Counted from the stretch's first letter, positions 9,099-57,522 are shown. The stretch is DNA of 64,000 nt from Candidatus Hydrogenedens sp. (GCA_049968235.1 JBMFRC010000010.1:1-64000); one strand, 5' to 3'. Notes: a model not told the origin generated them from the letters alone. Translations and numbers: made by a program.

Positions 9099-9109
9099 GG
9101 AGAATAGGT

Positions 9110-9946: not shown

Positions 9947-9970
9947 CATTAGTGATATGGAGATTAAAAA

Positions 9971-28534: not shown

Positions 28535-28604
28535 GTATATTTGTAATATAATAATAAAAATTAATAATATTAGGAATAGTTCTCTCAATTAGTGAGATTA
28601 GTGA

Positions 28605-29579: not shown

Positions 29580-29594
29580 TAGGAAGTAGTATCC

Positions 29595-31745: not shown

Positions 31746-31751
31746 TCAAAT

Positions 31752-32030
31752 ATGCATAATAATCGAACAGAAAAAATGATTAAAGTTGTTAATTCATTAG
31801 GTGTTCATGCACGTCCCGCTGCAATGATAGTGCGAGCCATGCAGAAATACGATGCTCATATATATCTTATTTTTAATGGAAATCGTCGTAATGCCAAAAG
31901 TGTATTGCAAATATTAAGTTTAGGTGTACCCAAAGATGCAGAAATTTTAGCAGTTGCGGAAGGGAAAGATGCATATCCGGCATTACAAGAACTGGAAGAG
32001 ATATTTGAAAGTGGGTTCGGAGAAGAATAA
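31752..32030 (+). CDS. ptsH: Phosphocarrier protein HPr
   Basis: GVHARPAAMIV contains the active-site His. The regulatory Ser region (NAKSVLQILSLG) is consistent with HprK-targeted HPr. An alternative start lies at 31776 (MIKVV). Confidence 0.8.
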   Translation: MHNNRTEKMIKVVNSLGVHARPAAMIVRAMQKYDAHIYLIFNGNRRNAKSVLQILSLGVPKDAEILAVAEGKDAYPALQELEEIFESGFGEE

Positions 32031-33782: not shown

Positions 33783-33789
33783 ATGTGTT

Positions 33790-34971: not shown

Positions 34972-34986
34972 AGATAGGAAGATATA

Positions 34987-36684
34987 ATGCTGTTCAGTAT
35001 ACTTGTTTTTATAGTTGTTTTGAGTATCTTAATTTTTGTTCATGAATTGGGTCATTTTGTATCTGCTAAACTTTGCAATATATATGTGGACCAATTTAGT
35101 ATTGGTATGCCACCACGGTTAGTTGGTATAAAAATAGGAGAAACAGATTATTGTATTGGTGCTTTGCCTATAGGTGGATATGTAAAAATGGCGGGTCAGG
35201 AAGATGTCCCCTTAGATGAAAAAGAGCGAGAAGAAACTTATGGACATGTTCCACAAGAACGTTGGTTCAAGTTCCGTCCTCTCTGGCAAAGATACATAGT
35301 TATTATTAGCGGACCTTTTATGAATTTTGTTCTCGCTATTATTATTTATATCATTCTTGTTTCTAAAGGAACCTTAATGCCTGAAATGGAAGTGGATTCA
35401 AAGATAGGTAAGGTTGAGGAAAATAGTCCTGCTTTTCATGCTCCACTTTTTTTATATGATGAGATGAGAAATGATAGAAAGGAATACACAGGAAACCCTG
35501 AAGAAACAGGTTGGAAAACAGGAGACCGTATTCTCTCTATTAATGGGAATACTGTAAGGAAATTTAGTGATTTATTTGTAAATGCTACATTGGGAGGTTT
35601 TTCCGATGAACACAAAGTAATCCTTGAAAGAGAATATGTTGATGGGACAATTAAAAAATATATATCTTTTATAAAGCCTGAAATTATAGAAGGAAGTGAA
35701 CTTCCTCGTTATGGCGTAGCTCCTTTCTATTCTGCATTATTAAAGGAAGTAATCAAAGATATGCCTGCCGAAGAGGCTGGTCTAAAGGAAGGAGATATAA
35801 TTTTTTCTGCGAATGGGATTTTAGTTGACCGTACCACTTTTGTTGAACTTACAGAAAAAGCACCTGCCAATCAACCTATCTCCCTTATAATCATTAGAGA
35901 TGGAAAAAAGCAAAATATTCAGGTTGTGCCTGTGACGGTAGGTAGATTGCGGGGAATTAGTCTGTTAGAAACATCCGGTTCCCGAGACGATAGGAAAGGG
36001 TTAGTTGTTGTAGATATAGAATTGGAAATGCAAAAGAAGACAGGTTTGCGGAGAAAAGATATTATCACTAAAATTAATGGGGAATATTTTTCTATTGACA
36101 AACTCCATCAATTTGAGAGAGAACATGCAGGAGAAACCATTGAATTAGAAGTGTATCGACCACCGGTAATATTTGGACTCCTTGAAAAGTCGTCTACATT
36201 AAAGTTAAAGGTTACATTAGACCCGGTACAAGCAATAGGAGTAGCCTTAGGAGAAAAATTGGTAAAGGTAGATTATCCTGTTTCGCAATGGTTGCCTGAA
36301 GCATTTAAACGAAGTTATGATGATTTAAAGCAGACGATTCTTGTCTTAAAGGGCTTAATCGTAGGTGCGGTTAGTCCTAAAGTTTTGGGAGGTCCTATCA
36401 TGATTTTTGATGCTACTTCTAAAGCGGCTAATATGGGCATAGATTGGTTATTAGGTCTAATGGCTCTGGTAAGTGTAAATCTTGCTGTTGTAAATCTGTT
36501 GCCTATACCGATTCTTGATGGTAGCCTTGTCTTCATATTAACTATTGAATCTATAATGAAAAGACCATTGAGCCCTAAAATACAAGAGCGAATACAACAA
36601 ATAGGTTTTGTTATAATAATATTACTTCTCCTATTGGTTAGTTGGAATGATATAAGACGAATTATAAGTGATATTATTCCCTAA
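34987..36684 (+). CDS. rseP: RIP metalloprotease RseP (site-2 protease, zinc)
   Basis: HELGHF zinc-binding motif in the first TM helix, PDZ domains, and the C-terminal LLPIPILDGS (LDG) motif. The dxr-rseP adjacency is widely conserved. Confidence 0.8.
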   Translation: MLFSILVFIVVLSILIFVHELGHFVSAKLCNIYVDQFSIGMPPRLVGIKIGETDYCIGALPIGGYVKMAGQEDVPLDEKEREETYGHVPQERWFKFRPLWQRYIVIISGPFMNFVLAIIIYIILVSKGTLMPEMEVDSKIGKVEENSPAFHAPLFLYDEMRNDRKEYTGNPEETGWKTGDRILSINGNTVRKFSDLFVNATLGGFSDEHKVILEREYVDGTIKKYISFIKPEIIEGSELPRYGVAPFYSALLKEVIKDMPAEEAGLKEGDIIFSANGILVDRTTFVELTEKAPANQPISLIIIRDGKKQNIQVVPVTVGRLRGISLLETSGSRDDRKGLVVVDIELEMQKKTGLRRKDIITKINGEYFSIDKLHQFEREHAGETIELEVYRPPVIFGLLEKSSTLKLKVTLDPVQAIGVALGEKLVKVDYPVSQWLPEAFKRSYDDLKQTILVLKGLIVGAVSPKVLGGPIMIFDATSKAANMGIDWLLGLMALVSVNLAVVNLLPIPILDGSLVFILTIESIMKRPLSPKIQERIQQIGFVIIILLLLLVSWNDIRRIISDIIP

Positions 36685-36720
36685 TTGTAATAACCATAAC
36701 TAAAAATAAAAGGAATAAGA

Positions 36721-38031
36721 ATGGGTGCAATTACATGTAAATTTGGTGGAACTTCACTTGCCGATGCTAATTGTATTAAAAAAGTAAAAGAGATAATACT
36801 TTCATCGAGTAATCGTAGATTTATTGTTCCTTCGGCTCCAGGTAAAAGGGATTCTAAAGATAAAAAAATTACAGACCTTTTATATCTCTGGTATGAAATT
36901 GCACGCGAAGGTTTGGATGCATCTGAACCTGAAAGAATTATCAGAGAGCGTTTTAATACGATTGTATCAGAACTTTCCTTATCTATTGATATAAATAAAG
37001 AAATAGATGAAATATCTAAAAATGCAGGTGTTTTTAAGTCACCCGATTATATGGCTTCAAGGGGAGAATATCTAAATGGGAGAATTATTGCAGAATATTT
37101 AGGGGCAACATTTATAGACCCTGCTAAATGTATATTTTTTAATGAATCAGGCTTTTTGGATACAAGAACATATAATATATTAGGGGAACAATTGCAGGGG
37201 TCAGGACTTTTTGTAGTCCCTGGTTTTTATGGTTCAATGCCGGATGGTAACATAAAAACATTTCCGAGAGGTGGTAGTGATATAACGGGTGCTATTGTAG
37301 CCCGTGCCAGTAAATCTATACTTTATGAGAATTGGACGGATGTTAATGGTTTCCGTATGGCTGACCCTAAAATCGTTCCTGATGCAAAAAGGATAGAGGA
37401 AATAACTTATCAGGAATTGCGAGAACTTTCCTATATGGGAGCAACGGTTTTACATGATGAATCTATTTATCCTGTTCTTGAAATGGGAATCCCCATACAT
37501 ATTAAGAATACACATGAACCTGAGAATCCGGGAACTATGATTGTTAAAAGTAGAGTGCCTAAAGGTCCGGTGTGTGGGATTGCGGGATTAGGTGGATTTA
37601 GTATGATTAATATTGAGAAAACCTTTATGAACAAAGAAAGAGGTTTTGGTCTAAAGGTTTTGTCCGTTCTTGATGAATTTGATGTTCGTTGGGAACATAT
37701 GCCTACCGGTATTGACACAATGTCTGTAATCATCCGTAATAATGAATTAGGAAATAAGGGACAACTAATTGTAGATGCCATTAAGAAAAGATGTAATACA
37801 GATGAGGTAAACATTACAAAAGGTCTTGCAATGATTGCTACTGTAGGGTTGGGAATGAATCATCATATTGGCGTTGCAGCAAGATTATGTTCTGCACTTG
37901 CCCAAGCACAGGTAAATATTCGAGTTATTGACCAGGGGTCATCAGAAATGAATATCCTTATAGGCGTAGATGAATCTGATTTAAATAAATCTATCAAATC
38001 TATTTATGATGCCTTTGAAGACTGGGTGTAA
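36721..38031 (+). CDS. lysC: Aspartate kinase (amino-acid kinase family with C-terminal ACT domains)
   Basis: The N-terminal KFGGTSLAD matches the aspartokinase nucleotide-binding motif. The C-terminus has tandem ACT-like segments. Confidence 0.65.
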   Translation: MGAITCKFGGTSLADANCIKKVKEIILSSSNRRFIVPSAPGKRDSKDKKITDLLYLWYEIAREGLDASEPERIIRERFNTIVSELSLSIDINKEIDEISKNAGVFKSPDYMASRGEYLNGRIIAEYLGATFIDPAKCIFFNESGFLDTRTYNILGEQLQGSGLFVVPGFYGSMPDGNIKTFPRGGSDITGAIVARASKSILYENWTDVNGFRMADPKIVPDAKRIEEITYQELRELSYMGATVLHDESIYPVLEMGIPIHIKNTHEPENPGTMIVKSRVPKGPVCGIAGLGGFSMINIEKTFMNKERGFGLKVLSVLDEFDVRWEHMPTGIDTMSVIIRNNELGNKGQLIVDAIKKRCNTDEVNITKGLAMIATVGLGMNHHIGVAARLCSALAQAQVNIRVIDQGSSEMNILIGVDESDLNKSIKSIYDAFEDWV

Positions 38032-38091
38032 ATAGACCTGTATACATTATATTTCCCTTTAATAAAATCTAACTGAAAAGGCTTTTTATTT

Positions 38092-39546
38092 ATGCGTGGA
38101 ACTAAAATTATTTGTACTATGGGTCCGGCTACAAATGATGAAACTATTATTAAATCCCTTATCAATGCAGGTATGGATGTAGCACGTTTAAATCTTTCCC
38201 ATGGGACACATGACTATCATAAAGAAATGTATACGAAAATTCGTTCCGTCGCTAAAGAAACAGGGAAAGATATTGCCGTTTTATTTGATTTGCAAGGTCC
38301 TAAAATTAGGACGGGGTTTTTAGAAAATCACCAACCCATAGAATTAATTCGTGGCGAACATATTATTATTACATCAGAGCAAATTATTGGAAATACAAAG
38401 ATTATTTCCACAGATTATTCTCTTTTACCGGAAGAAGTAAAACCAGGGAATCGAATACTCTTAGCCGATGGTACCTTAGAACTTAGGGTAATTGAATCTC
38501 GCCCTCCAGAGATTGATTGCGAGATTATAAGAGGAGGTATATTGGGCGAAAGGAAAGGGATGAATTTACCTGAAATACCTATCAAACTTCCATCATTAAC
38601 AGAAAAAGATTGGGATGACCTTGATTTTGGAATTAGTTTAGGTGCGGATTATTTTGCTTTATCCTTTGTTCGTACACCGGAGGATGTTACACAGGTCAAA
38701 AAGCGATTACAGGATAAAAACAGTATTGCGAAAGTTGTTGCAAAAATAGAACGTCCCGAAGCACTACGATGTATTAATAGTATTATAGAGGTATCGGATG
38801 CATTACTAATTGCACGAGGAGACCTTGCCGTAGAGACAATACTTGAAGAAGTACCATTAGTACAAAAAAGAATTATTCGTAAATGTAATCTTGCAGGAAT
38901 TCCGGTTATCACAGCGACACAAATGCTGGAATCTATGACAGAACATCCTATACCTACGCGTGCGGAGATGTCTGATGTTGCAAATGCAGTTCTTGATGGA
39001 ACCGATGCAGTTATGTTGTCTGCGGAAACAGCGACAGGTAAAAATCCCATATCGGCTGTTGAAGTAATGGATAAAATAATTCGTTGTGTAGAGAAAGACC
39101 AGAGTTATTTCGAATGTCCTTTTGATGAGATGTGTAAATCTCCATTGTTGAAGCAAGACAATAAAGAATTTCACAGTAAGATTGAAGATACTGCTATAGC
39201 CTCAGGTAAAGCGGTAAAACAATTAGTAATGGCCCTAAATACAAAGGCAATTGCCTGCTTTACCTATTCAGGATATTCTGCAATGGCAATTTCTAATTCG
39301 CGACCTAAGGTTCCTATTTATGCTTTAACTCCTAATGAAAGTGTAGCAAGACAATGCTCTCTATTTTGGGGTGTTCAGGCAATAAAACTTCCTGAAGTGC
39401 AATCTATTGAAGACATGCTTCTTACCGTTGAAAAAACTCTAATAACAAAGAAATTAGTTAAACGAGGTGATATGGTAATAATTGTAGCAGGCTATCCTTT
39501 GTCAGTTGCATGTCCTACAAATCTTATAAAGGTGCATGTTATTTAA
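38092..39546 (+). CDS. pyk: Pyruvate kinase
   Basis: MRGTKIICTMGPA, ARLNLSHG, and the MLSAETA/TGKNP active-site regions. 484 aa. Confidence 0.9.
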   Translation: MRGTKIICTMGPATNDETIIKSLINAGMDVARLNLSHGTHDYHKEMYTKIRSVAKETGKDIAVLFDLQGPKIRTGFLENHQPIELIRGEHIIITSEQIIGNTKIISTDYSLLPEEVKPGNRILLADGTLELRVIESRPPEIDCEIIRGGILGERKGMNLPEIPIKLPSLTEKDWDDLDFGISLGADYFALSFVRTPEDVTQVKKRLQDKNSIAKVVAKIERPEALRCINSIIEVSDALLIARGDLAVETILEEVPLVQKRIIRKCNLAGIPVITATQMLESMTEHPIPTRAEMSDVANAVLDGTDAVMLSAETATGKNPISAVEVMDKIIRCVEKDQSYFECPFDEMCKSPLLKQDNKEFHSKIEDTAIASGKAVKQLVMALNTKAIACFTYSGYSAMAISNSRPKVPIYALTPNESVARQCSLFWGVQAIKLPEVQSIEDMLLTVEKTLITKKLVKRGDMVIIVAGYPLSVACPTNLIKVHVI

Positions 39547-39555
39547 TGGGACTTT

Positions 39556-40299
39556 ATGAATAGACAGGAATGGTATATATCTGCCTTTGAAGAATGGTAT
39601 CCAATTATTTACCAACATAGAGATGCAAAAGAAGCCCGGAAACAGGTCACGTTTGCGTATTCAGAATTAAATTTGCATTATAACAGCAAAACTCTGGATT
39701 TATGCTGTGGTTATGGTAGGCATTTAGTTTTTTTGTCTGAGAAAATATCATTTGTAGTGGGTTATGACTTATCATTATACTTGCTAAAAACAGCACAGCG
39801 TCTTTTACCCAATAAAATATCTCTTGTAAGAGGGGATGTGCGATATTTACCTTTTTCTCCTAAAAGTTTTGATGCTGTTTTGAACTTTTTCACAAGTTTT
39901 GGCTATTTTGAGGAAGATAGAGAAAATGTTCGTCAGATAGAACAGGTTTCGTTTGTTTTGAAGAATAAAGGGAAATTCTTATTTGATTATCTAAATTCGA
40001 TACAGGTACAAAAAATAAAAAATGTCATAACAGAGAAAACATATAAGACGTATATAATAAAAGAAAATCGTTGTTATGATGAAAGTAAAAAAGAACTTAG
40101 AAAAGATGTTTCTATTTATTTAAATAATCAACTAAAAAAATTTTATACTGAAAGAGTCAGGGTATATAGCCTTGAAGAAATATTAAAAATGTTCTCATCT
40201 CAAAATTTATGCATTCAAAAAATATATGGCAATTACAATAAGGAACCATATACGGAAGAAAGTCCAAGACTTATAATTGTCGGGGAGAAAAATGAATAA
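39556..40299 (+). CDS. Class I SAM-dependent methyltransferase
   Basis: Motif I-like LDLCCGYGRH and motif post-I (VVGYDLS). 247 aa. Substrate unknown. Confidence 0.6.
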   Translation: MNRQEWYISAFEEWYPIIYQHRDAKEARKQVTFAYSELNLHYNSKTLDLCCGYGRHLVFLSEKISFVVGYDLSLYLLKTAQRLLPNKISLVRGDVRYLPFSPKSFDAVLNFFTSFGYFEEDRENVRQIEQVSFVLKNKGKFLFDYLNSIQVQKIKNVITEKTYKTYIIKENRCYDESKKELRKDVSIYLNNQLKKFYTERVRVYSLEEILKMFSSQNLCIQKIYGNYNKEPYTEESPRLIIVGEKNE

Positions 40300-41809
40300 T
40301 CTGTTTCAGGATTTTTTACTATCCAAAAATGAGTTAAGAGAGTTTTTTCCATGGCTACCTGTTGACGGAATAAAAAAAATAAATGATTATATCAATAATA
40401 ACTACAAGTTTATAGAAAAAAAACATATCGCATCACCTGTGATAATAACGGGACAACAACCTGCTGTCTTTGGTGGACCTCTATATACTATTTATAAAAT
40501 AATTACAGTTATTCAATTATCCTCATTGCTACATAATAATTATGGAATTAAAACTCAACCGATTTTCTGGGTTCATTCGTGGGACCACGACTGGGAAGAA
40601 GTCTGTTATACGAATTTTCTTACTTATAACTATGAAATATACCCGTTTAGGTTTAATCCTGATAATAATGAAAAGGGAAAACCTTTATATAAACTAAAAT
40701 TGGACAAAGATTTTATAGAAGCACAAATACCTGAAATTTTCAAGAATGTTAAAGGTTCTGAATTTGCTTCTCGATGGCAGGATTTTCTTCTAAATTCAAT
40801 ATCTTCGTGTGACACTCTTTCGGATTGGTCTGTAAATATTCTAAAACAAATATTCAAAGATGAAAACCTTTGTTGGTTTGAACCCCATAATGCAAAGGAT
40901 TTTAAAATTTTACAGCAGGTCATGGAAATATCTATTGATAATCATTCCTTATTATTTGAACATTTTAATAAAACAACAAGTCTTTTAAAAGAAACAGGTT
41001 ATAAACCTCAGGTGCATAAATTACCTGACAATGCGTTCTTTTTCCTTGAAGAAAATAATTATAGGAGTAGACTTAAATTCCACGATGGCGTTTTTTATTC
41101 TGAAATATCAAAAAGAAAATATGCTGTTTCTGAGATAAAACGTATATTACATTATGAACCGGAACGCTTCTCCCCTAATCTTTTATTAAGGTGTATTTAT
41201 CAACAGATGATTTTTCCCGTAGTAGTTTATGTTGGGGGACCTGCAGAAGTTGCTTATTGGGCTCAGTTAAAAGATTTATTTTTATTTTTTAACTTGCCTA
41301 TGCCGATTGTATATCCTCGCAAGAGGTTAATATTATTACCTTCTAAAATAAAAAAATGGCTTTCAGAATTAAACATAAATGTATATAATTTACCTCAAAT
41401 ATACGATAATATAAAAGATAATAAATCTTTTGTTATATCAGATAGTCTAAATAGTGAGATAGAAAAAACTAAAATAAAGTTTATAGATAATGCGATGTCA
41501 TTCTTTGATAATTTAATTACGATATTTAATGATAAATCTTTAGATAATTACCGCAAAACATATTTATCAAAAATGGAATTTGAGGCACAACGATTGATTG
41601 ATAATTTCACCAAATTACAGAGAAATAAAAATGAGATATTTCAGAAGCATCTTACTCATATATTGAATACAATTTATCCAAATAGTTTAGAACAGGAACG
41701 GTTTTTTTCGCCCTTTTCTTTTATCCCGGAATATAGCCATGATTTTATTAAAATGATAATGAATAAAACAGATGTTATAGATTTTGATATAGGGATTGTA
41801 GAGATATGA
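40292..41809 (+). CDS. bshC: Putative bacillithiol biosynthesis cysteine-adding enzyme BshC-like protein
   Basis: About 505 aa, close to the BshC size range. It sits directly upstream of BshB- and BshA-like genes with overlapping or abutting junctions (ATG at 40292 overlaps the upstream TAA; the 3' end overlaps bshB by 4 nt). The family assignment rests mainly on context and size, not on a motif I can verify by eye. Confidence 0.4.
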   Translation: MNNLFQDFLLSKNELREFFPWLPVDGIKKINDYINNNYKFIEKKHIASPVIITGQQPAVFGGPLYTIYKIITVIQLSSLLHNNYGIKTQPIFWVHSWDHDWEEVCYTNFLTYNYEIYPFRFNPDNNEKGKPLYKLKLDKDFIEAQIPEIFKNVKGSEFASRWQDFLLNSISSCDTLSDWSVNILKQIFKDENLCWFEPHNAKDFKILQQVMEISIDNHSLLFEHFNKTTSLLKETGYKPQVHKLPDNAFFFLEENNYRSRLKFHDGVFYSEISKRKYAVSEIKRILHYEPERFSPNLLLRCIYQQMIFPVVVYVGGPAEVAYWAQLKDLFLFFNLPMPIVYPRKRLILLPSKIKKWLSELNINVYNLPQIYDNIKDNKSFVISDSLNSEIEKTKIKFIDNAMSFFDNLITIFNDKSLDNYRKTYLSKMEFEAQRLIDNFTKLQRNKNEIFQKHLTHILNTIYPNSLEQERFFSPFSFIPEYSHDFIKMIMNKTDVIDFDIGIVEI

Positions 41810-42513
41810 ATGATATAGATATTTTAGCATTCGGAGCCCACCCGGACGATGTTGAATTGGGGATTGGAGGAATTTTAGCAAAATGTGTCCAGAATGGTTT
41901 AAAAGTGGGTATTATTGATTTAACACGGGGAGAAATGAGTTCTCGTGGAACAGTTGAAGAAAGAAGATTAGAGGCAGAAGAAGCAGGAAAAATAATTGGA
42001 ATATCTTTAAGAGATAATCTTTATCTAAAAGATTCAGAGGTTCAGAATGTTCCTGAACAAAGATTGCCTGTTATTTCTACTATCAGGAAATATCGTCCCA
42101 AAATTATTTTTGCTACTATGAATGAAGATAAACATCCTGACCATCACAATGCCCATTTTTTAATAAAAGAATCTAATTATTTTTCAGGCTTATTCAAAAT
42201 CAAAACAGAATACGAACCTTATCGTTGTCCAACATTACTTTTTTACTACCCCTATTATGAAGTCCGGTCTCCTAATTTTATTGTTGATATTTCAGAGTAT
42301 TATGATAGGAAAATAAATGCTTTAAAAGCACATCGCTCACAATTTTTTAATCCTGGATATTCAGGAAATAAAACTTTTATTTCTTCCGAGAGATTCTGGC
42401 ATAGTATTCGGGACCGATGTGCGTATTGGGGAAGTAGAATTAATGTGTCTTATGCTGAAACGATTTTTAGTATAGAACCTGTAAATTTATCATCACTTAA
42501 AATAATTATTTGA
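41806..42513 (+). CDS. bshB: PIG-L/LmbE-family N-acetylglucosaminyl deacetylase, BshB-like (GlcNAc-malate deacetylase)
   Basis: N-terminal DILAFGAHPDDVELGIGG is the PIG-L/LmbE zinc-site motif and closely resembles the BshB1 N-terminus. The downstream HPDH motif is present. 235 aa. Confidence 0.7.
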   Translation: MNDIDILAFGAHPDDVELGIGGILAKCVQNGLKVGIIDLTRGEMSSRGTVEERRLEAEEAGKIIGISLRDNLYLKDSEVQNVPEQRLPVISTIRKYRPKIIFATMNEDKHPDHHNAHFLIKESNYFSGLFKIKTEYEPYRCPTLLFYYPYYEVRSPNFIVDISEYYDRKINALKAHRSQFFNPGYSGNKTFISSERFWHSIRDRCAYWGSRINVSYAETIFSIEPVNLSSLKIII

Positions 42514-42514
42514 C

Positions 42515-43663
42515 ATGAAAGATATAAAAGAAAAATTAAAGATTGGTATTAGTTGTCATACCTCTACAGGAGGTAGTGGGATTGTAGCAACGGAACTGGG
42601 TTTAGCACTTTCTTCACGAGGACATGAAGTTCATTTTGTAGCAGATAACATTCCGTTCCGATTGAGGGATAATATTGAGAATGTTTTTTGTCATATTGTC
42701 GAACCTGTAAATTATCCTGTATTAAATCAGCCTCCTTATTATCTGGCTATGGCATCACGAATTGCAGAAGTCGTAGAAGAACATAATATCCAGATATGGC
42801 ATGCTCATTACGCAATACCTCATGCAAGTATTGCCTTACTTGCAAAAGAAATGTTACCGCCAGAGTTAAAATTCTGCCTTATAACTACTCTTCATGGCAC
42901 AGATATAACGATTGTAGGAGCAGACCCGTCATTGTATCGAATAACAAAATATGCAATGGAACATAGCTGTGCAATAACTGCGGTATCTAATTGGTTAAAA
43001 TATGAAACGGAGCGGGAATTTCAATTATCTAAACCTGTTCATACAATACACAACTTTATAGACCCTTCCCGTTTTCATACAAAAAATAAGGTGCGTATTC
43101 CTTTTATGGAGAAAAATAAAAAAGTAGTTATGCATATTTCTAATTTCAGAGCGGTCAAAAGAGTCACCGATGTAATTCGTGTTTTTAAAAAGATTTCCGA
43201 TAAGATGGATGCTCAACTAATCATGGTTGGGGAAGGACCCGAAAAAGTCTCTTCCGTTGGGGTTGCAAGGCAATTAGGTATATTAAATAAGGTAAAATAT
43301 ATAGGTAATTATCATAATATTGAGGAACTTTTACCTCATGCTGATTTAGTATTACAACCCAGTGAGCATGAAAGTTTCGGAATGGTGGCATTAGAAGCCA
43401 TGGCATCGGGTGTTCCTGTTATCGCTACCAAAAGTGGTGGGATACAGGAATTAATTATTGATGGAGAAACAGGTTTTTTGTGTGAAGTAGGAGATATAGG
43501 AACTATGGCTGATTGGGCTATTCAAATTCTATTTGATAAAAAATTAAAGACAGAGATTGGAAAAAAGAGTAAAGAGAGAGTAAAAAAATATTTTAGTGTT
43601 GATAAAATAATACCTCAGTATGAAAAGTTATATATAGACACAATAAATAAATACAAAAGATAA
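42515..43663 (+). CDS. bshA: GT4 glycosyltransferase BshA-like (N-acetyl-alpha-D-glucosaminyl L-malate synthase)
   Basis: Blocks matching BshA as recalled: KIGISCHTSTGGSGIVATELG, RGHEVHFV, HAHYAIPHA, TTLHGTDIT, HISNFRAVKRV, ESFGMVALEAMA.GVP, GFLCEVGD. 382 aa. Confidence 0.75.
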   Translation: MKDIKEKLKIGISCHTSTGGSGIVATELGLALSSRGHEVHFVADNIPFRLRDNIENVFCHIVEPVNYPVLNQPPYYLAMASRIAEVVEEHNIQIWHAHYAIPHASIALLAKEMLPPELKFCLITTLHGTDITIVGADPSLYRITKYAMEHSCAITAVSNWLKYETEREFQLSKPVHTIHNFIDPSRFHTKNKVRIPFMEKNKKVVMHISNFRAVKRVTDVIRVFKKISDKMDAQLIMVGEGPEKVSSVGVARQLGILNKVKYIGNYHNIEELLPHADLVLQPSEHESFGMVALEAMASGVPVIATKSGGIQELIIDGETGFLCEVGDIGTMADWAIQILFDKKLKTEIGKKSKERVKKYFSVDKIIPQYEKLYIDTINKYKR

Positions 43664-43667
43664 TACT

Positions 43668-44579
43668 ATGGGAAACAAAAACATCATAAAAATTGGTATC
43701 TTTTACGACGGTAATTTCTTTTTTCATGTCAGCACCTATTATAGATATGTTCATCCACCGCGTAAGAGAATTTCTATTGATGGACTGCATGAGTTTATTC
43801 GCAATAGGGTTGCGGAATTTGAAAATACAGATAAGCGATATGTCCATATAGTAACTTCTCACTTTTTTAGAGGCAGATTATCGGCTAAAGATGCGGAACT
43901 CGAAGGTAAATTGTATTCTGAACGTGTTTTTGAAGATATATTAATGAGTGAAGGTGTTGTTACACATTATCTGCCTATAAAGACAAGAAGTGAGAAACGG
44001 CATGAAACGGGAATTGATGTATGGTTTGCATTAGAAGCCTATGAAGCGGTTGTGCATAAAGAATTGGATATAGTTGTGTTAATCACGGGAGATGCTGATT
44101 TTATTCCTTTGGTAAAAAAAGCACAGTCAGCAGGGGCAAAAGTTATGATTTTAGGATGGGATTTTAAATATACCGATGAAACAGGGATTGAACAGTCTAC
44201 ATTAACATCAATGGAACTTTTGAATGTCTCCACCTATCCTCTAAAAATGCATTTAATAATTGAGGAAGGATTGCAAAAAGATGCTCCTGAAATCCTAAGT
44301 CTATTTTTTGAACTAAAAGAAGAGACACAGAATAACCATGTGAAATCCTATATGAAAGGAAAAATTCACTCGTTGAAAGAAGGATATGGATTTATATCAT
44401 CCCCTGAATTTCCCAATAATGTTTTCTTCCATTATTCTGCTTTATCCAATCATAATTATCAAGATTTAAGCATCGGTCAGAATGTGGAATTTCTTATCCG
44501 GGAAACAGAAAAAGGAATCGTAGCACATCCTGTTATTGTAATTGATAATCCCTATAACGAGAATAATTCAATGAAGTAA
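43668..44579 (+). CDS. NYN (LabA-like) nuclease-domain protein fused to a C-terminal cold-shock (CSD/S1-like) domain
   Basis: N-terminal half: IKIGIFYDGNFFF...ETGIDVWFALEA...VVLITGDADFIPLVKKAQSAGAKVMILG carries the conserved Asp residues of NYN/LabA. C-terminal roughly 70 aa: GKIHSLKEGYGFISSP...NVFFHYSAL...LSIGQNVEF resembles the cold-shock domain fold (GFGFI...VFVH). The gene starts 5 nt after the bshA stop. Confidence 0.55.
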   Translation: MGNKNIIKIGIFYDGNFFFHVSTYYRYVHPPRKRISIDGLHEFIRNRVAEFENTDKRYVHIVTSHFFRGRLSAKDAELEGKLYSERVFEDILMSEGVVTHYLPIKTRSEKRHETGIDVWFALEAYEAVVHKELDIVVLITGDADFIPLVKKAQSAGAKVMILGWDFKYTDETGIEQSTLTSMELLNVSTYPLKMHLIIEEGLQKDAPEILSLFFELKEETQNNHVKSYMKGKIHSLKEGYGFISSPEFPNNVFFHYSALSNHNYQDLSIGQNVEFLIRETEKGIVAHPVIVIDNPYNENNSMK

Positions 44580-44581
44580 TT

Positions 44582-45649
44582 TTATTTTTCTTTTTCAAGT
44601 TCATCCTGCCAGGGAAGTTCTTCTATTTTCTCTATTTGTGTCCCTTTTACAGGATGCCATCTTTTGTTGTTGGGAGTAACCGATACCCATTCATACTCAC
44701 CTGTGCCCGGATATAATGAATACAGTTTTCCACCTTTTGGCACATAATCAGAGCCATACCCACCTTTTCCTGTTGCTCTTCCGTAAATTAAATCTACCCC
44801 CTCAATGATGCCTGAATAATCATTTACATGGTCGTGTCCGCAAATACATGCTTTTAGTCCCGGGATTTTCTTTATAAATGCTAACGATTCACCTTGTTCT
44901 TTTTCGTAACATACATTTTCAAATTTAACACCTGATGCTATTTTATTTTCCCATATAGTATGGTATTGATATATAGGGATATGACAAGCCATAAATGTTG
45001 GAATAACATTTATATTTTCTTTGCACCATTGGTCAATCCATTGTCTTTGTTCATTCATTAATCCATATTTGTTGCTATTTAAGCAGACAAATCTCCACAA
45101 TTTTTGATTGGATTCGTTTTCAATTATCACTTGGTAATTGCCTTCATTTATTCCACCTCGATACATAGAGTTTTTAGCGGAGGCTAATATATCATGTCCT
45201 TTGCTGTAATCTGATAACATATCATGATTGCCCCATGTATAAAACCAGGAAATGTTCAAAGAACCAAAAAATTCTACTGCTTCCTCTAAATACATTAAAC
45301 CTCTTCCAAAAGCATTTTCATTCCAGACATCGCCAGTTATTGCTAATAGATGGGGTTGTGTAAGGTCTAATAATTTCTTAATAATATCTCGAGTTGTATT
45401 ATCCACATTCTTATCTCTACGATAAGGATTAAAATGTATGTCTGTTATTTGTAATAATTGTATCGATTTTGGATTCCCCTGTATTTTCAATGTGTAAGAA
45501 TCTTCTTTAACAGTTTCTGATTTTTGCATTCCAACGAGGATTTTCAGCTCTTTTTTCTTAGCCCATACTCTTTTCATATTTAAGACTGTAAATGTTCCAA
45601 CTAAACTGGAAGCAATAAAAAATCTTCGTGTAATTTTTTCATTCTTCAT
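44582..45649 (-). CDS. Tat-secreted calcineurin-like metallophosphoesterase
   Basis: Twin-arginine motif TRRFFIASSL at the N-terminus. Metallophosphoesterase motifs (ITDIH, GDVWNE, GNHD, GHDH). 355 aa. Confidence 0.65.
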   Translation of the reverse strand: MKNEKITRRFFIASSLVGTFTVLNMKRVWAKKKELKILVGMQKSETVKEDSYTLKIQGNPKSIQLLQITDIHFNPYRRDKNVDNTTRDIIKKLLDLTQPHLLAITGDVWNENAFGRGLMYLEEAVEFFGSLNISWFYTWGNHDMLSDYSKGHDILASAKNSMYRGGINEGNYQVIIENESNQKLWRFVCLNSNKYGLMNEQRQWIDQWCKENINVIPTFMACHIPIYQYHTIWENKIASGVKFENVCYEKEQGESLAFIKKIPGLKACICGHDHVNDYSGIIEGVDLIYGRATGKGGYGSDYVPKGGKLYSLYPGTGEYEWVSVTPNNKRWHPVKGTQIEKIEELPWQDELEKEK

Positions 45650-45722
45650 ATTAGTCTCCTTCTATTGTTTTTGTTTTTTTATAATATATGAAAATCTACC
45701 AAGAATAAAACCGGATATTTAT

Positions 45723-46580
45723 ATGAAACAAATTTTTTTACCTATAAATTCTTTAATAAGACTATCTATATATGATTTTGGTGTTAAAGGACCACCTATA
45801 ATTTTTTGCCATTTTACAGGCGGGCTGGGAAAATTATGGAAAAATGTTATTACCCCTTTAAGAAATAATTATCATTGTTTTGCCTTCGATGCGAGGGGGC
45901 ATGGGGATTCTTCCAAACCTTTAGAAATGAAATATTATGACTGGAATGAGCATCTCTCTGATTTAATTGCTGTGGTTAAATATATAAAAAAATTATCAAA
46001 TTCAGATTGTATATTTGGTGTTGGGCATTCATTCGGTTCTGCCTGTTTATCTCAGGCTGTTATTAAAACTAAGAAATATATTTCATGGAAAAAAATTATC
46101 CTTATAGAACCTATTTTAGGTCCTGATACATTTGATTTTAGAAAATCTAAAATGTCTGAAATTGCACAAAAAAGACGCGGATATTTTGAATCGGAAAAAC
46201 AAATTGATACAATATTGCGGAATAAACAACCTTATAGGAATTGGGATATTGAGTCATGGAATATATTTAAAGAATGTGGCTTTACAACTAATGCGAGTGG
46301 AAAATATTATTTAAAGTGTACTCCTGAAATAGAATCCTATCAATATCTTTATGGTAATCCTTTGGGCTGGTTTGAACAATTAAAAAAAATAGATATTCCT
46401 GTTCTTTTAATTTATGGTAAAAATAGTGAGCTGTTACCTTTGGGTATCTACCAGTTAGAACAAATAAAAAATTCTTATTTAATGAAAATTCCGGAAGTCG
46501 GTCACTTTTTCCCACAAGAAAAACCTTCATTCCTTGCTAATATAATAAAAAATTGGTTTTCCTTTGAAAATAATTGTTGA
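45723..46580 (+). CDS. Alpha/beta-fold hydrolase
   Basis: Nucleophile elbow GVGHSFGS, HG oxyanion motif (CHFTGG), and a C-terminal His (VGHFFPQEKP). 285 aa. Confidence 0.65.
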   Translation: MKQIFLPINSLIRLSIYDFGVKGPPIIFCHFTGGLGKLWKNVITPLRNNYHCFAFDARGHGDSSKPLEMKYYDWNEHLSDLIAVVKYIKKLSNSDCIFGVGHSFGSACLSQAVIKTKKYISWKKIILIEPILGPDTFDFRKSKMSEIAQKRRGYFESEKQIDTILRNKQPYRNWDIESWNIFKECGFTTNASGKYYLKCTPEIESYQYLYGNPLGWFEQLKKIDIPVLLIYGKNSELLPLGIYQLEQIKNSYLMKIPEVGHFFPQEKPSFLANIIKNWFSFENNC

Positions 46581-46634
46581 TATTAGTATTAATTTTGATA
46601 TAATAACAAAAAAAAAACAATAAAGGGTAATGCT

Positions 46635-47201
46635 ATGCAAAAGTTAATTTATTTACAACCAAATATTTTTATTATTTTAATCCTTGTTTCTGTCTTCTCT
46701 CTCCGAGTTTTTTCTGATGAAACATGTGAGACAAAAAGTAGTGGTTTGAAAATAAGATTGGAATTGGGTTCATCTTTCAGGATTGCTCATGATAGTAATG
46801 ATATTGATGGTTATTTAATTTCTTCTTTTGTTGATATCGGTAAAGAACTCTCCCCTCGAACAAATTTATCTTTAAGACTATTACCTGTTTTCGGTTATAT
46901 TCAGGAAAAAAATATGGAAGATATAATAGGGTTTGGAATTGGCGGTGCTTTAAGAATTTATTTTAAAAAGAATCAGGAAAAAGGATTTTTTACAGAGATA
47001 CATGAAATTGTTTGTTTGCATGAAAACAAATTTGAAGGAAATGATTCTAATGTTAATTTCTATTCGGCAATCGGCATTGGTTATCAATTCTGCCCTAACT
47101 GGGATATGTTATTAAGATTTGGTCATATTTCGAATGCGGGGATAAAAGACGAAAATGAAGGAACAAATCTTTTAGGTTTTGGCGTGGGATATACATTTTA
47201 G
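46635..47201 (+). CDS. Small outer-membrane beta-barrel protein, PagL-like (putative lipid A deacylase family)
   Basis: Signal peptide, alternating hydrophobic beta-strand pattern, and a C-terminal aromatic residue (GVGYTF). The His-x-Ser...Glu arrangement near the C-terminus (FGHISNAG...DENEG) recalls the PagL catalytic triad spacing. 188 aa. Confidence 0.4.
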   Translation: MQKLIYLQPNIFIILILVSVFSLRVFSDETCETKSSGLKIRLELGSSFRIAHDSNDIDGYLISSFVDIGKELSPRTNLSLRLLPVFGYIQEKNMEDIIGFGIGGALRIYFKKNQEKGFFTEIHEIVCLHENKFEGNDSNVNFYSAIGIGYQFCPNWDMLLRFGHISNAGIKDENEGTNLLGFGVGYTF

Positions 47202-47202
47202 A

Positions 47203-47577
47203 TTAATCATGAGTACTTAAAGGCTGAAAGTTAGTTATAAATTCATTTATCATGTTTAAACTATGGGTATAGGGAAAAACTCCTGAGTAAATAATTCGTT
47301 TTTCTATGTTGATTTTATTTTTTTCATTTTCTATTAGGACATAGATGGGCAATTCATAAGGTATATGGGAAAAATATCTTATTTCAAAGACTTCATCATT
47401 GGATAATTTTTGTGATTCTTTATAATCTATAAATATGATGTCATAATTTTCATGGAATATCTGTTCTTTTGCGAAATCTATATTACTTAAATGAGTAATC
47501 TCATGCCCCAATGCTTCTAATTCACTAACAATGGGGGCAGCTAAAATGCTATCACTTATAATTAATATTTTCAACAT
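47203..47577 (-). CDS. Stand-alone CheY-like receiver-fold protein with degenerate acidic pocket (pseudo-receiver?)
   Basis: The KILIISDSIL opening has Ser in place of the second acidic-pocket Asp. DIIFIDY sits at the phospho-acceptor position. 124 aa with no output domain. Confidence 0.35.
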   Translation of the reverse strand: MLKILIISDSILAAPIVSELEALGHEITHLSNIDFAKEQIFHENYDIIFIDYKESQKLSNDEVFEIRYFSHIPYELPIYVLIENEKNKINIEKRIIYSGVFPYTHSLNMINEFITNFQPLSTHD

Positions 47578-47701
47578 GTTTTTGAAATTTTCTTTTACTC
47601 TTATTATACATTAGAAAATTAAAAATATAACATTGTTGACAATTCATGAAATTAAAATATAAAATATATTTAATTAAATAATTGACATAAGGACTTTTAA
47701 C

Positions 47702-48430
47702 ATGAGTAGTAACAGAAAAAAGATAGTATTTGTGATTTTTATTCTTCTATTTGTTCCTATATATTTATATGGACAACAAGACAAACCCGAAAATAATTCT
47801 AAAGCAGAGACACCTCCTTCGGCAACATTAGAAAAAGAAGAAGGAAACCAACCAGCACCCGAAAGTGAAATAGTTTTACCCGGCGATATTATTTATTTTA
47901 AATCAGGAAAAAAAATGAGCGGTATACAGGTACTTCGTGAACTTCCTGATAAAATTGAAGTTCAAGTAAGTGAAAATGCAGAACCGTTATTATTGCCAAG
48001 ACGATTAATAAAATCTATTGAATACGACAATATAGACCCTCTAAAAAATAAGATACAAAAAGATATTTTATCTTCTCAAAAACAGGATGAAAATGTAATT
48101 CCGGGCGAAGAACTATCTAAAGAGTTTAATCAAAAAATGAGAACTCCTCTTTCGGATAGTGTTATATCATATAAGGATGAGGGGTTGCTGAAAATTCTTG
48201 GTGAGTTGACGCAAAAAGTTGGAGTTACTCTTGAAATTGATGAGTCAATAAGGACTATACCCCCCGAAGAGAGAAAAAAGAGTTTTGATATACCAGCTGG
48301 AACATCACTTTATAAATTTTTACAAACAGATTTTTCAATGGCATGTCCTAATATCCAAATTACATATAAATACGACAAAATATTTATTTCTTTGAAAAGT
48401 CCTGGAACAAATAGCAATAATTCTCAATAA
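47702..48430 (+). CDS. Secreted hypothetical protein with C-terminal STN/secretin-N-like segment
   Basis: Signal peptide, then a low-complexity linker. The C-terminal roughly 90 aa (ISYKDEGLLKILGELTQKVGVTLEIDESI...FDIPAGTSLYKFLQ) resembles the short secretin/TonB N-terminal (STN) fold. Assignment is weak. Confidence 0.3.
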   Translation: MSSNRKKIVFVIFILLFVPIYLYGQQDKPENNSKAETPPSATLEKEEGNQPAPESEIVLPGDIIYFKSGKKMSGIQVLRELPDKIEVQVSENAEPLLLPRRLIKSIEYDNIDPLKNKIQKDILSSQKQDENVIPGEELSKEFNQKMRTPLSDSVISYKDEGLLKILGELTQKVGVTLEIDESIRTIPPEERKKSFDIPAGTSLYKFLQTDFSMACPNIQITYKYDKIFISLKSPGTNSNNSQ

Positions 48431-48445
48431 ATTCTCTTCTAATAT

Positions 48446-49633
48446 TTATTTTCTTAATATTACTATGCTTTCGATATGTGGTGTGTGTGGAAACATATCA
48501 ATACCTATCACTTTTTGAATTGTCCAACCATTTTGATTTAGTTCTTTCAAATCTCTACACATAGTTACAGTTTCACAAGAAATATATACAATTTTATTTG
48601 ATTCTGCTTTTGTTAAATAAGGAATTAATTTTTTTGCACCTGTTCGCGGAGGGTCAAGTAAAATTGTGTCCCATTTTTCATTCAATAAATATTTATACAT
48701 TACCTTTTCATCCCCGATTACATATTTAAATGTTGAAAATTTATTTGCCATGTTTATAGCAATAGGGTCTATATCTATTCCAACGATATATTTTTCTTTG
48801 TCCAAATCTATTGTAAAGTTTCCGGTACCGCAATATAAATCCAATATTTTTTGGTCATTCTGGATAGTTTTTTGGACTTGATTTTTCAATATTTTGTTAA
48901 GTATAAGACTATTTTGAGAGAAACAACTATTTACGATAGGCATATTATCATATAGAAAGTAGTTTTTTGAAGTATTATTTATTATTATTTTATGGTAGTT
49001 ATAATCATTTTCATTATTATTTTCACATATAATTGGTGGGTATAATATATATTCATTTGTTTCTGGATTTATTGTTATACATATATCATTTTTTATATTT
49101 TTTTGTAATAACTTTCTTCTTACTGTTTCTATTGTCTTATTTGTTATTACACATTGTGATACATCGACTATTTGTTTTGTATGGAACTTATAAAATCCTA
49201 AATTCTTCCCGTCGCCATGATATATAACTCTTGTTCTATAATGATATTGATTATTTTGGTCATAGATTATTTCAACATTAACTTTTTCTCTTGTCAAGCT
49301 TCTTTCGATATTTTCTTTCAGCAATTGCTTTTTATACTCAATTTGTTTATGATAATCTAACATTCCCCACATACAGGCTCCGCAACTACCCATTTGGGGA
49401 CACAACTTTGTTTTTCTATATGGGGAATCTTTTATTATTCTTTCTATTTCTGCCCATACTAAGTTTTTTTGTTTTAGAATTGGCTTTATCAATAAGGTAT
49501 CACCGGGATATGCGAAAGGAATCAAGTGAACCAATCCTTCCAATCTTCCTAACCCATATCCCCCATTTACAACTTTTTCAATCTCTATTTCGAACAAATT
49601 ATTTTTTGCCATTATTTTTGCTCTTGAACCCAT
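48446..49633 (-). CDS. rlmD: 23S rRNA (uracil-C5)-methyltransferase RlmD/RumA family, with internal low-complexity insertion
   Basis: TRAM-like N-terminus. Fe-S Cys cluster (CPQMGSCGACMW...C). C-terminal MTase motifs DLYCGTGNF and DPPRTG, plus the catalytic Cys region YISCE. An Asn/Ile-rich insertion of about 60 aa separates the domains. Confidence 0.75.
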   Translation of the reverse strand: MGSRAKIMAKNNLFEIEIEKVVNGGYGLGRLEGLVHLIPFAYPGDTLLIKPILKQKNLVWAEIERIIKDSPYRKTKLCPQMGSCGACMWGMLDYHKQIEYKKQLLKENIERSLTREKVNVEIIYDQNNQYHYRTRVIYHGDGKNLGFYKFHTKQIVDVSQCVITNKTIETVRRKLLQKNIKNDICITINPETNEYILYPPIICENNNENDYNYHKIIINNTSKNYFLYDNMPIVNSCFSQNSLILNKILKNQVQKTIQNDQKILDLYCGTGNFTIDLDKEKYIVGIDIDPIAINMANKFSTFKYVIGDEKVMYKYLLNEKWDTILLDPPRTGAKKLIPYLTKAESNKIVYISCETVTMCRDLKELNQNGWTIQKVIGIDMFPHTPHIESIVILRK

Positions 49634-50325: not shown

Positions 50326-50337
50326 AGTTATATGATA

Positions 50338-57495: not shown

Positions 57496-57522
57496 TTTTT
57501 CTTAACATTTAGGAGGAATATT

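What the first reader, a model, noticed from the sequence alone, without database searches (positions are those of the whole stretch)
40292..44579. Contiguous bshC-bshB-bshA bacillithiol cluster in a probable diderm, followed directly by an NYN-CSD nuclease-like gene
BshA- and BshB-like proteins are recognisable by strong sequence blocks. The upstream gene of about 505 aa sits where BshC would be, with overlapping junctions that suggest one operon. In Bacillus, bshC is unlinked from bshB1-bshA, so a compact three-gene arrangement is notable. The host carries outer-membrane-type genes (PagL-like barrel, glycine-zipper OM lipoprotein, Tat), so this looks like bacillithiol use outside Firmicutes. 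The NYN-CSD gene begins 5 nt after bshA and may be co-transcribed.
Basis: partly seen in the sequence, partly recalled or inferred. Interest (0 to 1): 0.5.

Follow-up and report, generated by a model that had tools for sequence, protein, structure and literature searches.

The report
N-methyl-bacillithiol operon in Hydrogenedentota
The three genes are true bacillithiol (a glutathione-like protective thiol) biosynthesis genes in an uncultured Hydrogenedens bacterium, and the overlooked gene just upstream is very probably the methyltransferase that makes N-methyl-bacillithiol; this is a tidy but ordinary extension of a pathway already known in many Gram-negative phyla.

Summary
ORFs 40292-41809, 41806-42513 and 42515-43663 score above NCBIfam's curated equivalog cut-offs for BshC, BshB1 and BshA, and best match the solved BshC, BshB and BshA structures. 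A NYN+cold-shock-domain gene follows after a 4-nt spacer.

- The window is a Candidatus Hydrogenedens MAG, and GenBank already names these three proteins.
- Bacillithiol pathways in diderm phyla are established (14 phyla surveyed in 2025).
- "Occasional co-localization" of bshC with bshA has been noted since bshC was discovered.

It is a class I methyltransferase whose best solved relative by a wide margin is NmbA, the bacillithiol N-methyltransferase. This methyltransferase-bshC junction recurs in KSB1, Thermoanaerobaculia and 11 of 65 metagenome loci, always directly upstream of bshC. The cluster is therefore most likely nmbA-bshC-bshB-bshA, making N-methyl-bacillithiol.

The NYN-CSD gene follows bshA only in Hydrogenedentota. 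Elsewhere it stands alone, so it is probably co-transcribed but not part of the pathway.

Verdict: new member of a known kind, low to moderate interest.

The parts
39556..40299 (+). nmbA-like class I SAM-dependent methyltransferase (247 aa), predicted bacillithiol cysteine-N-methyltransferase
   Evidence: The best solved relative is 9RI2 (CtNmbA), E 7.5e-29 over the full length; the next is 1wzn at 1.6e-12. A profile of 16 homologues built without CtNmbA hits 9RI2 at 5.4e-60 (206 bits), against 94 bits for the next methyltransferase. It shares 35 invariant columns with CtNmbA. It overlaps the bshC start by 8 nt. The same junction is found in KSB1, Thermoanaerobaculia and metagenome loci.
40292..41809 (+). 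bshC, putative cysteine-adding enzyme (505 aa)
   Evidence: TIGR03998 317.3 bits (cut-off 265.8); Pfam PF10079 and PF24850. PDB 4WBD (B. subtilis BshC) 1.2e-35. The N-terminus is about 30-38 aa shorter than in Bacillus, KSB1 and Acidobacteria BshC, and this is conserved in Hydrogenedentota relatives.
41806..42513 (+). bshB (BshB1-type GlcNAc-malate deacetylase, 235 aa)
   Evidence: TIGR04001 251.3 bits (cut-off 182.5). PDB 1UAN, 2IXD and 6P2T at 1.8e-47 to 8.8e-40. The HPDD motif at residue 12 and HPDH at residue 110 are present.
42515..43663 (+). bshA (GlcNAc-malate synthase, GT4, 382 aa)
   Evidence: TIGR03999 486.2 bits (cut-off 273.7). PDB 3MBO, 2JJM and 5D00 at about 1e-108 to 1e-102 over the full length.
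43668..44579 (+). NYN (LabA-like PIN nuclease) + cold-shock domain protein (303 aa). A neighbour that is probably co-transcribed, not judged part of the pathway.
   Evidence: Pfam NYN 1.6e-14 and CSD 3.6e-14. The acidic motifs YDGN (13), GIDVW (115) and GDADF (141) are present. The family is 45-55% identical across phyla. It follows bshA only in Hydrogenedentota-type loci (L001, L002, L008, L012, L015) and stands alone elsewhere.

Best explanation
The region 39556-43663 is a four-gene biosynthetic operon, nmbA-bshC-bshB-bshA, in an uncultured Candidatus Hydrogenedens bacterium (phylum Hydrogenedentota).

Proposed pathway:
1. BshA couples UDP-GlcNAc to L-malate.
2. BshB removes the acetyl group.
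3. BshC adds cysteine, giving bacillithiol.
4. The upstream methyltransferase, an NmbA homologue, methylates the cysteine amine with SAM, giving N-methyl-bacillithiol. This would be the cell's main low-molecular-weight thiol for redox buffering and detoxification.

The overlapping or nearly abutting start and stop codons suggest translational coupling, especially between nmbA and bshC.

Shown here: family membership of the four proteins, the junction anatomy, and conservation of the nmbA-bshC(-bshB-bshA) order in several unrelated lineages.

Inferred: the enzymatic steps (from characterised homologues), co-transcription, and the methylated end product.

The NYN-CSD gene downstream is a separate, widely conserved predicted RNA nuclease that has been parked behind bshA in this phylum.
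For: BshA, BshB1 and BshC all exceed NCBIfam equivalog cut-offs, and their best solved relatives are BshA, BshB and BshC.

Evidence that the methyltransferase is NmbA-like:
- Its best PDB hit is CtNmbA 9RI2, E 7.5e-29 over the full length, against 1.6e-12 for the next methyltransferase.
- An unbiased profile gives 206 bits against 94 bits.
- Motif I (TLDLCCGYG against VLDIACGAG) and the FGYF aromatic pair named in PMC12719100 are conserved, along with the HR, DxxN, ExVxxY and C-terminal SPR motifs.

Evidence for linkage:
- The methyltransferase lies directly upstream of bshC in KSB1 (L003), Thermoanaerobaculia (L005, with bshB and bshA) and a 6.5-Mb genome (L007).
- It also does so in 11 of 65 metagenome loci, every time in that slot and on the same strand. 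Six loci have the full four-gene order.
- The linked bshC genes fall in 6 of 19 clusters at 40% identity, and GC content ranges from 0.34 to 0.63.

NmbA function was shown genetically in C. tepidum (PMC6282198) and biochemically for CtNmbA and PpNmbA (PMC12719100).
Against: - Identity to CtNmbA is only 30% by BLASTP. This is below the 35% floor used for the published similarity network.
- The fold comparison does not single out NmbA. 9RI2 is rank 11 with TM 0.66, behind 3D2L and CypM. The NmbA paper itself reports that AlphaFold models mis-predict the cap domain, so this test cannot discriminate.
- No thiol chemistry or expression data exist for this organism.
- Tight gene spacing is general in this genome. 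Pyruvate kinase ends 9 nt before the methyltransferase, and 13 same-strand genes run from 27959 to 44579. Spacing alone therefore does not define the operon.
- No bacilliredoxin, Bdr/YpdA or DinB-type transferase lies in the window.
- The BshC N-terminus is shortened.
Confidence: 0.78

Rival explanations
1. The cluster makes plain bacillithiol. The upstream methyltransferase acts on a different substrate, such as another metabolite, a protein or an RNA, and is merely a neighbour.
For: Identity to CtNmbA is only 30%. The fold search ranks other small-molecule methyltransferases above 9RI2. Unrelated housekeeping genes such as pyruvate kinase are packed just as tightly in this genome. GenBank calls it only 'class I SAM-dependent methyltransferase'.
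Against: The sequence profile separates NmbA from all other solved methyltransferases by 112 bits. The methyltransferase-bshC junction is conserved in at least six deeply divergent bshC groups and three named phyla, whereas pyruvate kinase is not. Family-specific motifs are shared with CtNmbA.
Confidence: 0.14
2. The BshA/BshB/BshC-like proteins build a different GlcNAc-derived product, such as a surface glycoconjugate, rather than a cytoplasmic thiol.
For: BshA belongs to the very large GT4 family and BshB to the PIG-L family, both of which have many other substrates. The BshC reaction has never been reconstituted in vitro (PMC5790435).
Against: All three proteins pass equivalog-level cut-offs with wide margins. 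The next-best families score far below their own cut-offs, for example BshB2 at 41.7 against 195 and MshA at 70 against 462. BshC has no known role outside this pathway. The three genes co-occur with an NmbA homologue, whose only known substrate is bacillithiol.
Confidence: 0.04
3. The NYN-CSD nuclease is a functional fifth member of the operon, for example a post-transcriptional regulator tied to thiol or redox stress.
For: A 4-nt spacer after bshA leaves no room for an own promoter. The bshA-NYN-CSD order is kept in Hydrogenedentota relatives whose BshC is only 41-55% identical (L002, L008, L015).
Against: Homologues at 48-51% identity in Lentisphaerae, Cytophagales and Bacteroidales are stand-alone genes in unrelated contexts, with about 180-300 nt of upstream intergenic space. 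The four nmbA-bshCBA loci from other lineages lack the gene. The whole block from aspartate kinase to PagL is syntenic within the phylum, so conservation there reflects ancestry.
Confidence: 0.07

Closest known systems
N-methyl-bacillithiol pathway of Chlorobaculum tepidum (bshA CT0548, bshB CT1419, bshC CT1558, nmbA CT1040; Hiras et al. 2018, Hammerstad et al. 2025)
   Same: The same four enzyme families are present. The methyltransferase aligns over its full length with CtNmbA (9RI2) and keeps Motif I, the FGYF aromatic pair and other family-specific residues. The host is an anaerobe-associated diderm.
   Different: In C. tepidum the four genes are scattered, as their locus tags show. Here they form one compact, overlapping operon. 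Identity to CtNmbA is only 30%. The phylum (Hydrogenedentota) is not in the published distribution tables, which covered only validly published phyla.
Bacillus subtilis bacillithiol genes (mgsA-bshB1-bshA operon; separate ylbQ/panE-bshC operon)
   Same: BshA, BshB1 and BshC orthologues are present, and bshB-bshA adjacency is kept.
   Different: The gene order is C-B-A with bshC fused into the same unit. There is no mgsA and no adjacent pan genes; panBCD lie 30 kb away at 8304-10318. An nmbA gene is added. BshC is about 35 aa shorter at the N-terminus.
nmbA-bshC-bshB(-bshA) loci in Thermoanaerobaculia (Acidobacteriota) and candidate division KSB1 MAGs (L005, L003)
   Same: The gene order is identical, with a 4-nt methyltransferase/bshC overlap. 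The methyltransferases are 38-41% identical to the window's.
   Different: Downstream genes differ: fur-feoB in L005 and anmK on the opposite strand in L003. There is no NYN-CSD. KSB1 lacks bshA in the cluster.
LabA-like NYN proteins (COG1432) fused to RNA-binding modules such as OST-HTH (PIN-like superfamily classification, PMC5499597)
   Same: The NYN domain has its acidic residues intact and is fused to a nucleic-acid-binding module. It is a predicted stand-alone RNA-processing or degradation enzyme of unknown target.
   Different: The binding module here is a C-terminal cold-shock domain rather than OST-HTH. No member of this architecture appears to have been studied.

Membership tests
BshC (bacillithiol cysteine-adding enzyme, TIGR03998 / PF10079 + PF24850) | Scores above the curated equivalog cut-off and has both the Rossmann-like and the coiled-coil domains | tested here: met
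   317.3 bits against 265.8. PF10079 3.6e-73 and PF24850 9.4e-11. 4WBD 1.2e-35. Core motifs (GQQ, GGPLYT, DxD, GGPxExxYxAQ) are invariant in alignment A3. Caveat: the first ~75 profile positions are unmatched, because the N-terminus is shorter.
BshC | Required for conversion of GlcN-malate to bacillithiol in vivo | not testable with these tools
   This needs genetics or thiol analysis. The reaction has not been reconstituted in vitro even for Bacillus BshC (PMC5790435).
BshB1 (GlcNAc-malate deacetylase, TIGR04001, PIG-L fold) | Equivalog score, plus the His/Asp/His metal-binding motifs of the PIG-L/LmbE family | tested here: met
   251.3 bits against 182.5; BshB2, Mca and MshB score far below their own cut-offs. 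HPDD is at residues 12-15 and HPDH at 110-113. That these residues are the zinc ligands is from my own knowledge of BcZBP (2IXD). The best PDB hits are 1UAN, 2IXD and 6P2T.
BshA (GlcNAc-malate synthase, TIGR03999, GT4) | Equivalog score that clearly separates it from other GT4 enzymes | tested here: met
   486.2 bits against 273.7; the next family scores 128 bits against its cut-off of 409. 3MBO, 2JJM and 5D00 hit at about 1e-108 to 1e-102 over the full length.
NmbA (bacillithiol N-methyltransferase) | Class I SAM methyltransferase with a Motif I of VLDIAxGxG type and the aromatic pair Y134/F135 | tested here: met
   TLDLCCGYG aligns with VLDIACGAG, and TSFGYFE aligns with SSFGYFE.
NmbA | Closer in sequence to validated NmbA than to any other characterised methyltransferase | tested here: met
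   9RI2 7.5e-29 against the next at 1.6e-12. A profile built without CtNmbA gives 206 bits against 94 bits.
NmbA | At least 35% identity, the criterion of the published sequence-similarity network | tested here: inconclusive
   Direct BLASTP identity to CtNmbA is 30%. The network is transitive, and I could not obtain the sequences of other validated members (PpNmbA, Polaribacter).
NmbA | Co-occurrence with a complete bshA-bshB-bshC set | tested here: met
   It is adjacent and overlapping in the window. The same linkage occurs in 17 further loci.
NmbA | Narrow 'molecular basket' cap-domain architecture seen in the crystal structure | tested here: inconclusive
   The AF2 model has pLDDT 92.5. 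Foldseek places 9RI2 at rank 11, TM 0.66, rmsd 8 Å. The paper states that AlphaFold models differ from the crystal in exactly this domain.
NmbA | SAM-dependent methylation of the cysteine nitrogen of bacillithiol | not testable with these tools
   This needs an enzyme assay or thiol mass spectrometry.
NYN-CSD as a component of the bacillithiol operon | Linkage to bsh genes conserved beyond one lineage | tested here: not met
   It follows bshA only in Hydrogenedentota-type loci. It stands alone in L009-L011 and is absent from the other nmbA-bshCBA loci.
LabA-like NYN nuclease (PF01936 / COG1432) | NYN domain above the Pfam threshold with conserved acidic residues | tested here: met
   55.1 bits against 24.2. 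The YDGN, GIDVW and GDADF motifs are present.

The most novel reading that the evidence does not exclude
Across Hydrogenedentota, the widely conserved but unstudied NYN-CSD nuclease has been captured into the N-methyl-bacillithiol transcript. RNA turnover would then be co-regulated with thiol-redox homeostasis. A related possibility is that the invariant, translationally coupled nmbA-bshC junction, seen in six divergent lineages, reflects a physical NmbA-BshC partnership. That could bear on why BshC activity has never been reconstituted alone.
Probability: 0.08. Interest if true: 0.5.

Novelty: new member of a known kind. Interest (0 to 1): 0.25.

Why it matters
It adds a candidate phylum (Hydrogenedentota), and by extension KSB1 and Thermoanaerobaculia MAGs, to the organisms predicted to use N-methyl-bacillithiol. 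Published surveys did not cover these groups.

It gives independent gene-neighbourhood support for the NmbA assignment. The two NmbA papers I read do not mention operons or gene neighbourhoods (word searches).

It shows that a compact four-gene cassette exists. That cassette could be moved as a unit for heterologous production of N-methyl-bacillithiol, and for testing whether BshC works without extra factors.

It also shows that PGAP leaves NmbA homologues unnamed. None of this changes current understanding of the pathway.

Tried and rejected
- The promoter and terminator scan of 33000-48000 gave no more promoter-like sites than shuffled sequence (69 against 72 expected) and no terminator between the genes. 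It neither defines nor breaks the operon.
- Rfam found only two tRNAs in the window and no riboswitch or leader near the cluster.
- The structure-based test of the methyltransferase against NmbA was uninformative, with 9RI2 at rank 11.
- I looked for a recurrent extra gene next to bshC that might be the 'missing' BshC partner. Clusters of neighbouring ORFs across 88 loci gave only lineage-specific housekeeping genes: DapA, MurJ, RlmH, MutL, 5-FTHF cyclo-ligase, MiaB-like, LpxK and HAD.
- I looked for other bacillithiol-dependent genes (bacilliredoxin, Bdr/YpdA, DinB-type transferases) in the whole window and found none.
- Literature searches combining Hydrogenedentes or Hydrogenedentota with bacillithiol gave no paper.
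- A search for studies of NYN+CSD proteins found nothing specific.
- I rejected tight spacing as evidence of functional linkage, because pyruvate kinase is packed just as tightly against the methyltransferase (9 nt here, an overlap in L008).


Full report
**Observation**

The ORF map shows five consecutive + strand genes:
- 39556-40299 (247 aa)
- 40292-41809 (505 aa from the ATG; an upstream TTG at 40277 would give 510 aa)
- 41806-42513 (235 aa)
- 42515-43663 (382 aa)
- 43668-44579 (303 aa)

The array ends 2 nt from the stop of a convergent metallophosphoesterase gene (44582-45649).

Against NCBIfam, the middle three pass the curated equivalog cut-offs:
- BshC: 317.3 bits against 265.8
- BshB1: 251.3 against 182.5
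- BshA: 486.2 against 273.7

Pfam finds both BshC domains, PIG-L, and the GT4 domains. It finds NYN plus CSD in the last gene.

The best solved relatives agree:
- B. subtilis BshC 4WBD, 1.2e-35
- TT1542, BcZBP and BshB1, 1e-47 to 1e-40
- B. anthracis and B. subtilis BshA, about 1e-108

BshB keeps the HPDD (residue 12) and HPDH (residue 110) motifs.

One qualification concerns BshC. The match starts at profile position 75. The alignment with other BshC proteins shows that the Hydrogenedentota proteins lack about 30-38 N-terminal residues. This shortening is conserved among relatives, so it is not a mis-called start.

**Organism**

- A BshC-based genome scan finds 76% identity to Candidatus Hydrogenedens terephthalaticus and a fully syntenic region there.
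- The methyltransferase is 100% identical to a protein of 'MAG: Candidatus Hydrogenedens sp.'.
- An exact look-up shows the five proteins as consecutive GenBank accessions MGC8738654-58. They are already named BshC, BshB1 and BshA by the annotation pipeline. The first gene is only 'class I SAM-dependent methyltransferase' and the last 'NYN domain-containing protein'.
- PagL, a glycine-zipper protein (weak to borderline Pfam matches) and a Tat signal are present in the window. This fits a diderm.

The upstream methyltransferase overlaps bshC by 8 nt. A GGGGAG sequence sits just before the bshC ATG.

Evidence that it is NmbA-like:
- Its best solved relative is 9RI2 at 7.5e-29, aligned end to end. 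The next methyltransferase scores 1.6e-12.
- 9RI2 is the crystal structure of NmbA from Chlorobaculum tepidum. This enzyme N-methylates the cysteine of bacillithiol (PMC12719100; genetics in PMC6282198).
- Pairwise identity is modest at 30%.
- A profile built only from the window protein and 15 homologues, without CtNmbA, scores 9RI2 at 206 bits and the next PDB methyltransferase at 94 bits.
- The joint alignment has 35 invariant columns. They include the Motif I block and the FGYF aromatic pair that the NmbA paper highlights, plus motifs outside the generic SAM-binding core.

**Gene-neighbourhood evidence**

Homologues of the methyltransferase at 38-44% identity come from KSB1 and Thermoanaerobaculia MAGs. 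In the three I looked up, the gene lies directly upstream of bshC with a 4-nt overlap:
- KSB1 (L003): followed by bshB
- Thermoanaerobaculia (L005): followed by bshB and bshA
- An unnamed 6.5-Mb genome (L007): followed by bshB

I then scanned metagenome contigs with a BshC alignment, which returned 80 loci. I scored all ORFs with profiles of the five proteins. The score distribution for the methyltransferase is sharply bimodal: 19 hits at 229 bits or more, then 30 bits.

- Among 65 metagenome loci with at least 900 nt upstream of bshC, 11 carry the methyltransferase.
- In all 11 it is in the slot directly upstream, on the same strand, with its stop overlapping or abutting the bshC frame.

Of the 46 loci with adequate flanks on both sides:

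| Arrangement | Loci |
|---|---|
| bshC alone | 30 |
| methyltransferase-bshC-bshB-bshA | 4 |
| same, plus NYN-CSD | 2 |
| methyltransferase-bshC | 3 |
| methyltransferase-bshC-bshB | 2 |
| bshC-bshA-bshB | 2 |
| bshC-bshA | 2 |
| bshC-bshB | 1 |

The methyltransferase-linked bshC genes fall in 6 of 19 clusters at 40% identity. The four-gene loci without NYN-CSD have GC contents of 0.52-0.63, against 0.33 here.

The linkage is therefore old or repeatedly selected. It is the strongest argument that this methyltransferase works on the bacillithiol pathway. These 80 loci are the best-scoring ones, so the sample is biased towards relatives of the query. The fractions are not population estimates.

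**Operon boundaries**

Spacing alone is not informative in this genome.
- Thirteen + strand genes run from 27959 to 44579: HPF, HprK, a GH57 enzyme, PtsI, Dxr, RseP, aspartate kinase, pyruvate kinase, then the five genes above.
- Pyruvate kinase ends 9 nt before the methyltransferase. In a distant Hydrogenedentota relative it even overlaps it.
- The promoter and terminator scans show nothing beyond chance.

What sets nmbA-bshC-bshB-bshA apart is that it is kept together outside the phylum. The flanking genes are not.

**The NYN-CSD gene**

The family is large and well conserved, at 45-55% identity in Bacteroidales, Cytophagales, Lentisphaerae and Verrucomicrobia. The architecture is always the same.
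- It follows bshA in all Hydrogenedentota-type loci (L001, L002, L008, L012, L015).
- In Lentisphaerae, Cytophagales and Bacteroidales it is a stand-alone gene with roughly 180-300 nt of upstream spacer, in unrelated contexts.
- It is absent from the other four-gene loci.
- The acidic residues of the NYN fold are present, so it is probably an active nuclease with a cold-shock RNA-binding module.
- The LabA-like NYN group is functionally uncharacterised (PMC5499597).

It is very likely co-transcribed with bshA here, given the 4-nt spacer. I see no evidence that it belongs to the pathway.

**Comparison with what is known**

- Bacillithiol or its N-methyl form has been measured in Chlorobi, Bacteroidetes and Deinococcus-Thermus.
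- A 2025 survey lists complete pathways in 14 phyla, with NmbA in 13 of them.

A diderm with a contiguous bsh cluster is therefore expected biology.

What is not in the literature I could search:
- Hydrogenedentota or KSB1 as carriers. There are zero hits in the NmbA paper's supplement and in full-text searches. The survey was limited to validly published phyla.
- Any mention of an nmbA-bshC operon. The words operon, neighbourhood, genomic context and upstream do not occur in the NmbA structure paper. The words operon, cluster, synteny and adjacent do not occur in the discovery paper.

In C. tepidum the four genes are dispersed (CT0548, CT1419, CT1558, CT1040).

**Verdict**

The most likely reading (about 0.78) is a four-gene N-methyl-bacillithiol operon, with a lineage-specific hitch-hiking RNA nuclease gene downstream. 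This is a new member of a known kind, of modest interest. The useful by-products are the conserved nmbA-bshC junction and a portable four-gene cassette.

Noticed in passing
L002 (CAZJTZ010000003.1, 21263-38756): This MAG contig is titled 'uncultured Nitrospirales bacterium'. It is syntenic gene for gene with the Hydrogenedens window, from upstream of RseP to beyond PagL, and its BshC is 55% identical. The published survey found no bacillithiol pathway in Nitrospirota. The label is probably a taxonomic or binning error.
   Followed up: partly
window 8304-10318: panB-panC-panD (ketopantoate hydroxymethyltransferase, pantoate-beta-alanine ligase, aspartate decarboxylase) form a tight cluster. In B. 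subtilis the pan genes sit next to the bshB1-bshA operon. Here they are 30 kb away from the bsh cluster.
   Followed up: no
window 27959-33782: HPF, HPr kinase/phosphorylase, a GH57 amylase/glucanotransferase-like enzyme and PtsI (enzyme I) lie in one same-strand array. This is a PTS regulatory module in a non-Firmicute, with no obvious sugar permease in the window.
   Followed up: no
window 26083-27789 (-), 19268-19699 (-), 47203-48430, 49612-50946 (-): Several sizeable ORFs (568, 143, 124, 242, 237 and 202 aa) have no Pfam match at E <= 1e-5. Equivalents of the 124-aa and 242-aa ORFs are conserved in position in Hydrogenedentota relatives.
   Followed up: no
window 44582-45649 (-): This calcineurin-like metallophosphoesterase has a clear twin-arginine signal (TRRFFIASS...). 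Its stop codon is 2 nt from the NYN-CSD stop (convergent). A terminator-like hairpin at 44638-44657 lies inside its coding region.
   Followed up: no
window 57412-57492 and 57466-58497: The TTG-initiated ORF start at 57466 overlaps a tRNA gene (57412-57492). The true start of this GFO/IDH/MocA oxidoreductase is probably further downstream.
   Followed up: no
window 39556-40299 (AF2 model md588f06c81d7): The AlphaFold2 model of the NmbA-like protein superposes poorly on the NmbA crystal structure (TM 0.66, rmsd 8 Å), although that structure has the highest sequence identity of all hits. This reproduces the AlphaFold-versus-crystal discrepancy in the cap domain that the NmbA authors reported.
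   Followed up: partly
L005 11476-14714 (Thermoanaerobaculia MAG): In this acidobacterial locus the nmbA-bshC-bshB-bshA genes are followed on the same strand by fur, feoB and a feoA/iron-repressor gene. This hints at a possible link between N-methyl-bacillithiol and iron homeostasis in that lineage.
   Followed up: no
L003 6098-6784, L007 6149-6829, also L083-L085, L090: A HAD-family hydrolase gene lies divergently just upstream of the methyltransferase-bshC unit in KSB1-type loci, and recurs in six loci. Its function relative to the pathway is unknown.
   Followed up: no
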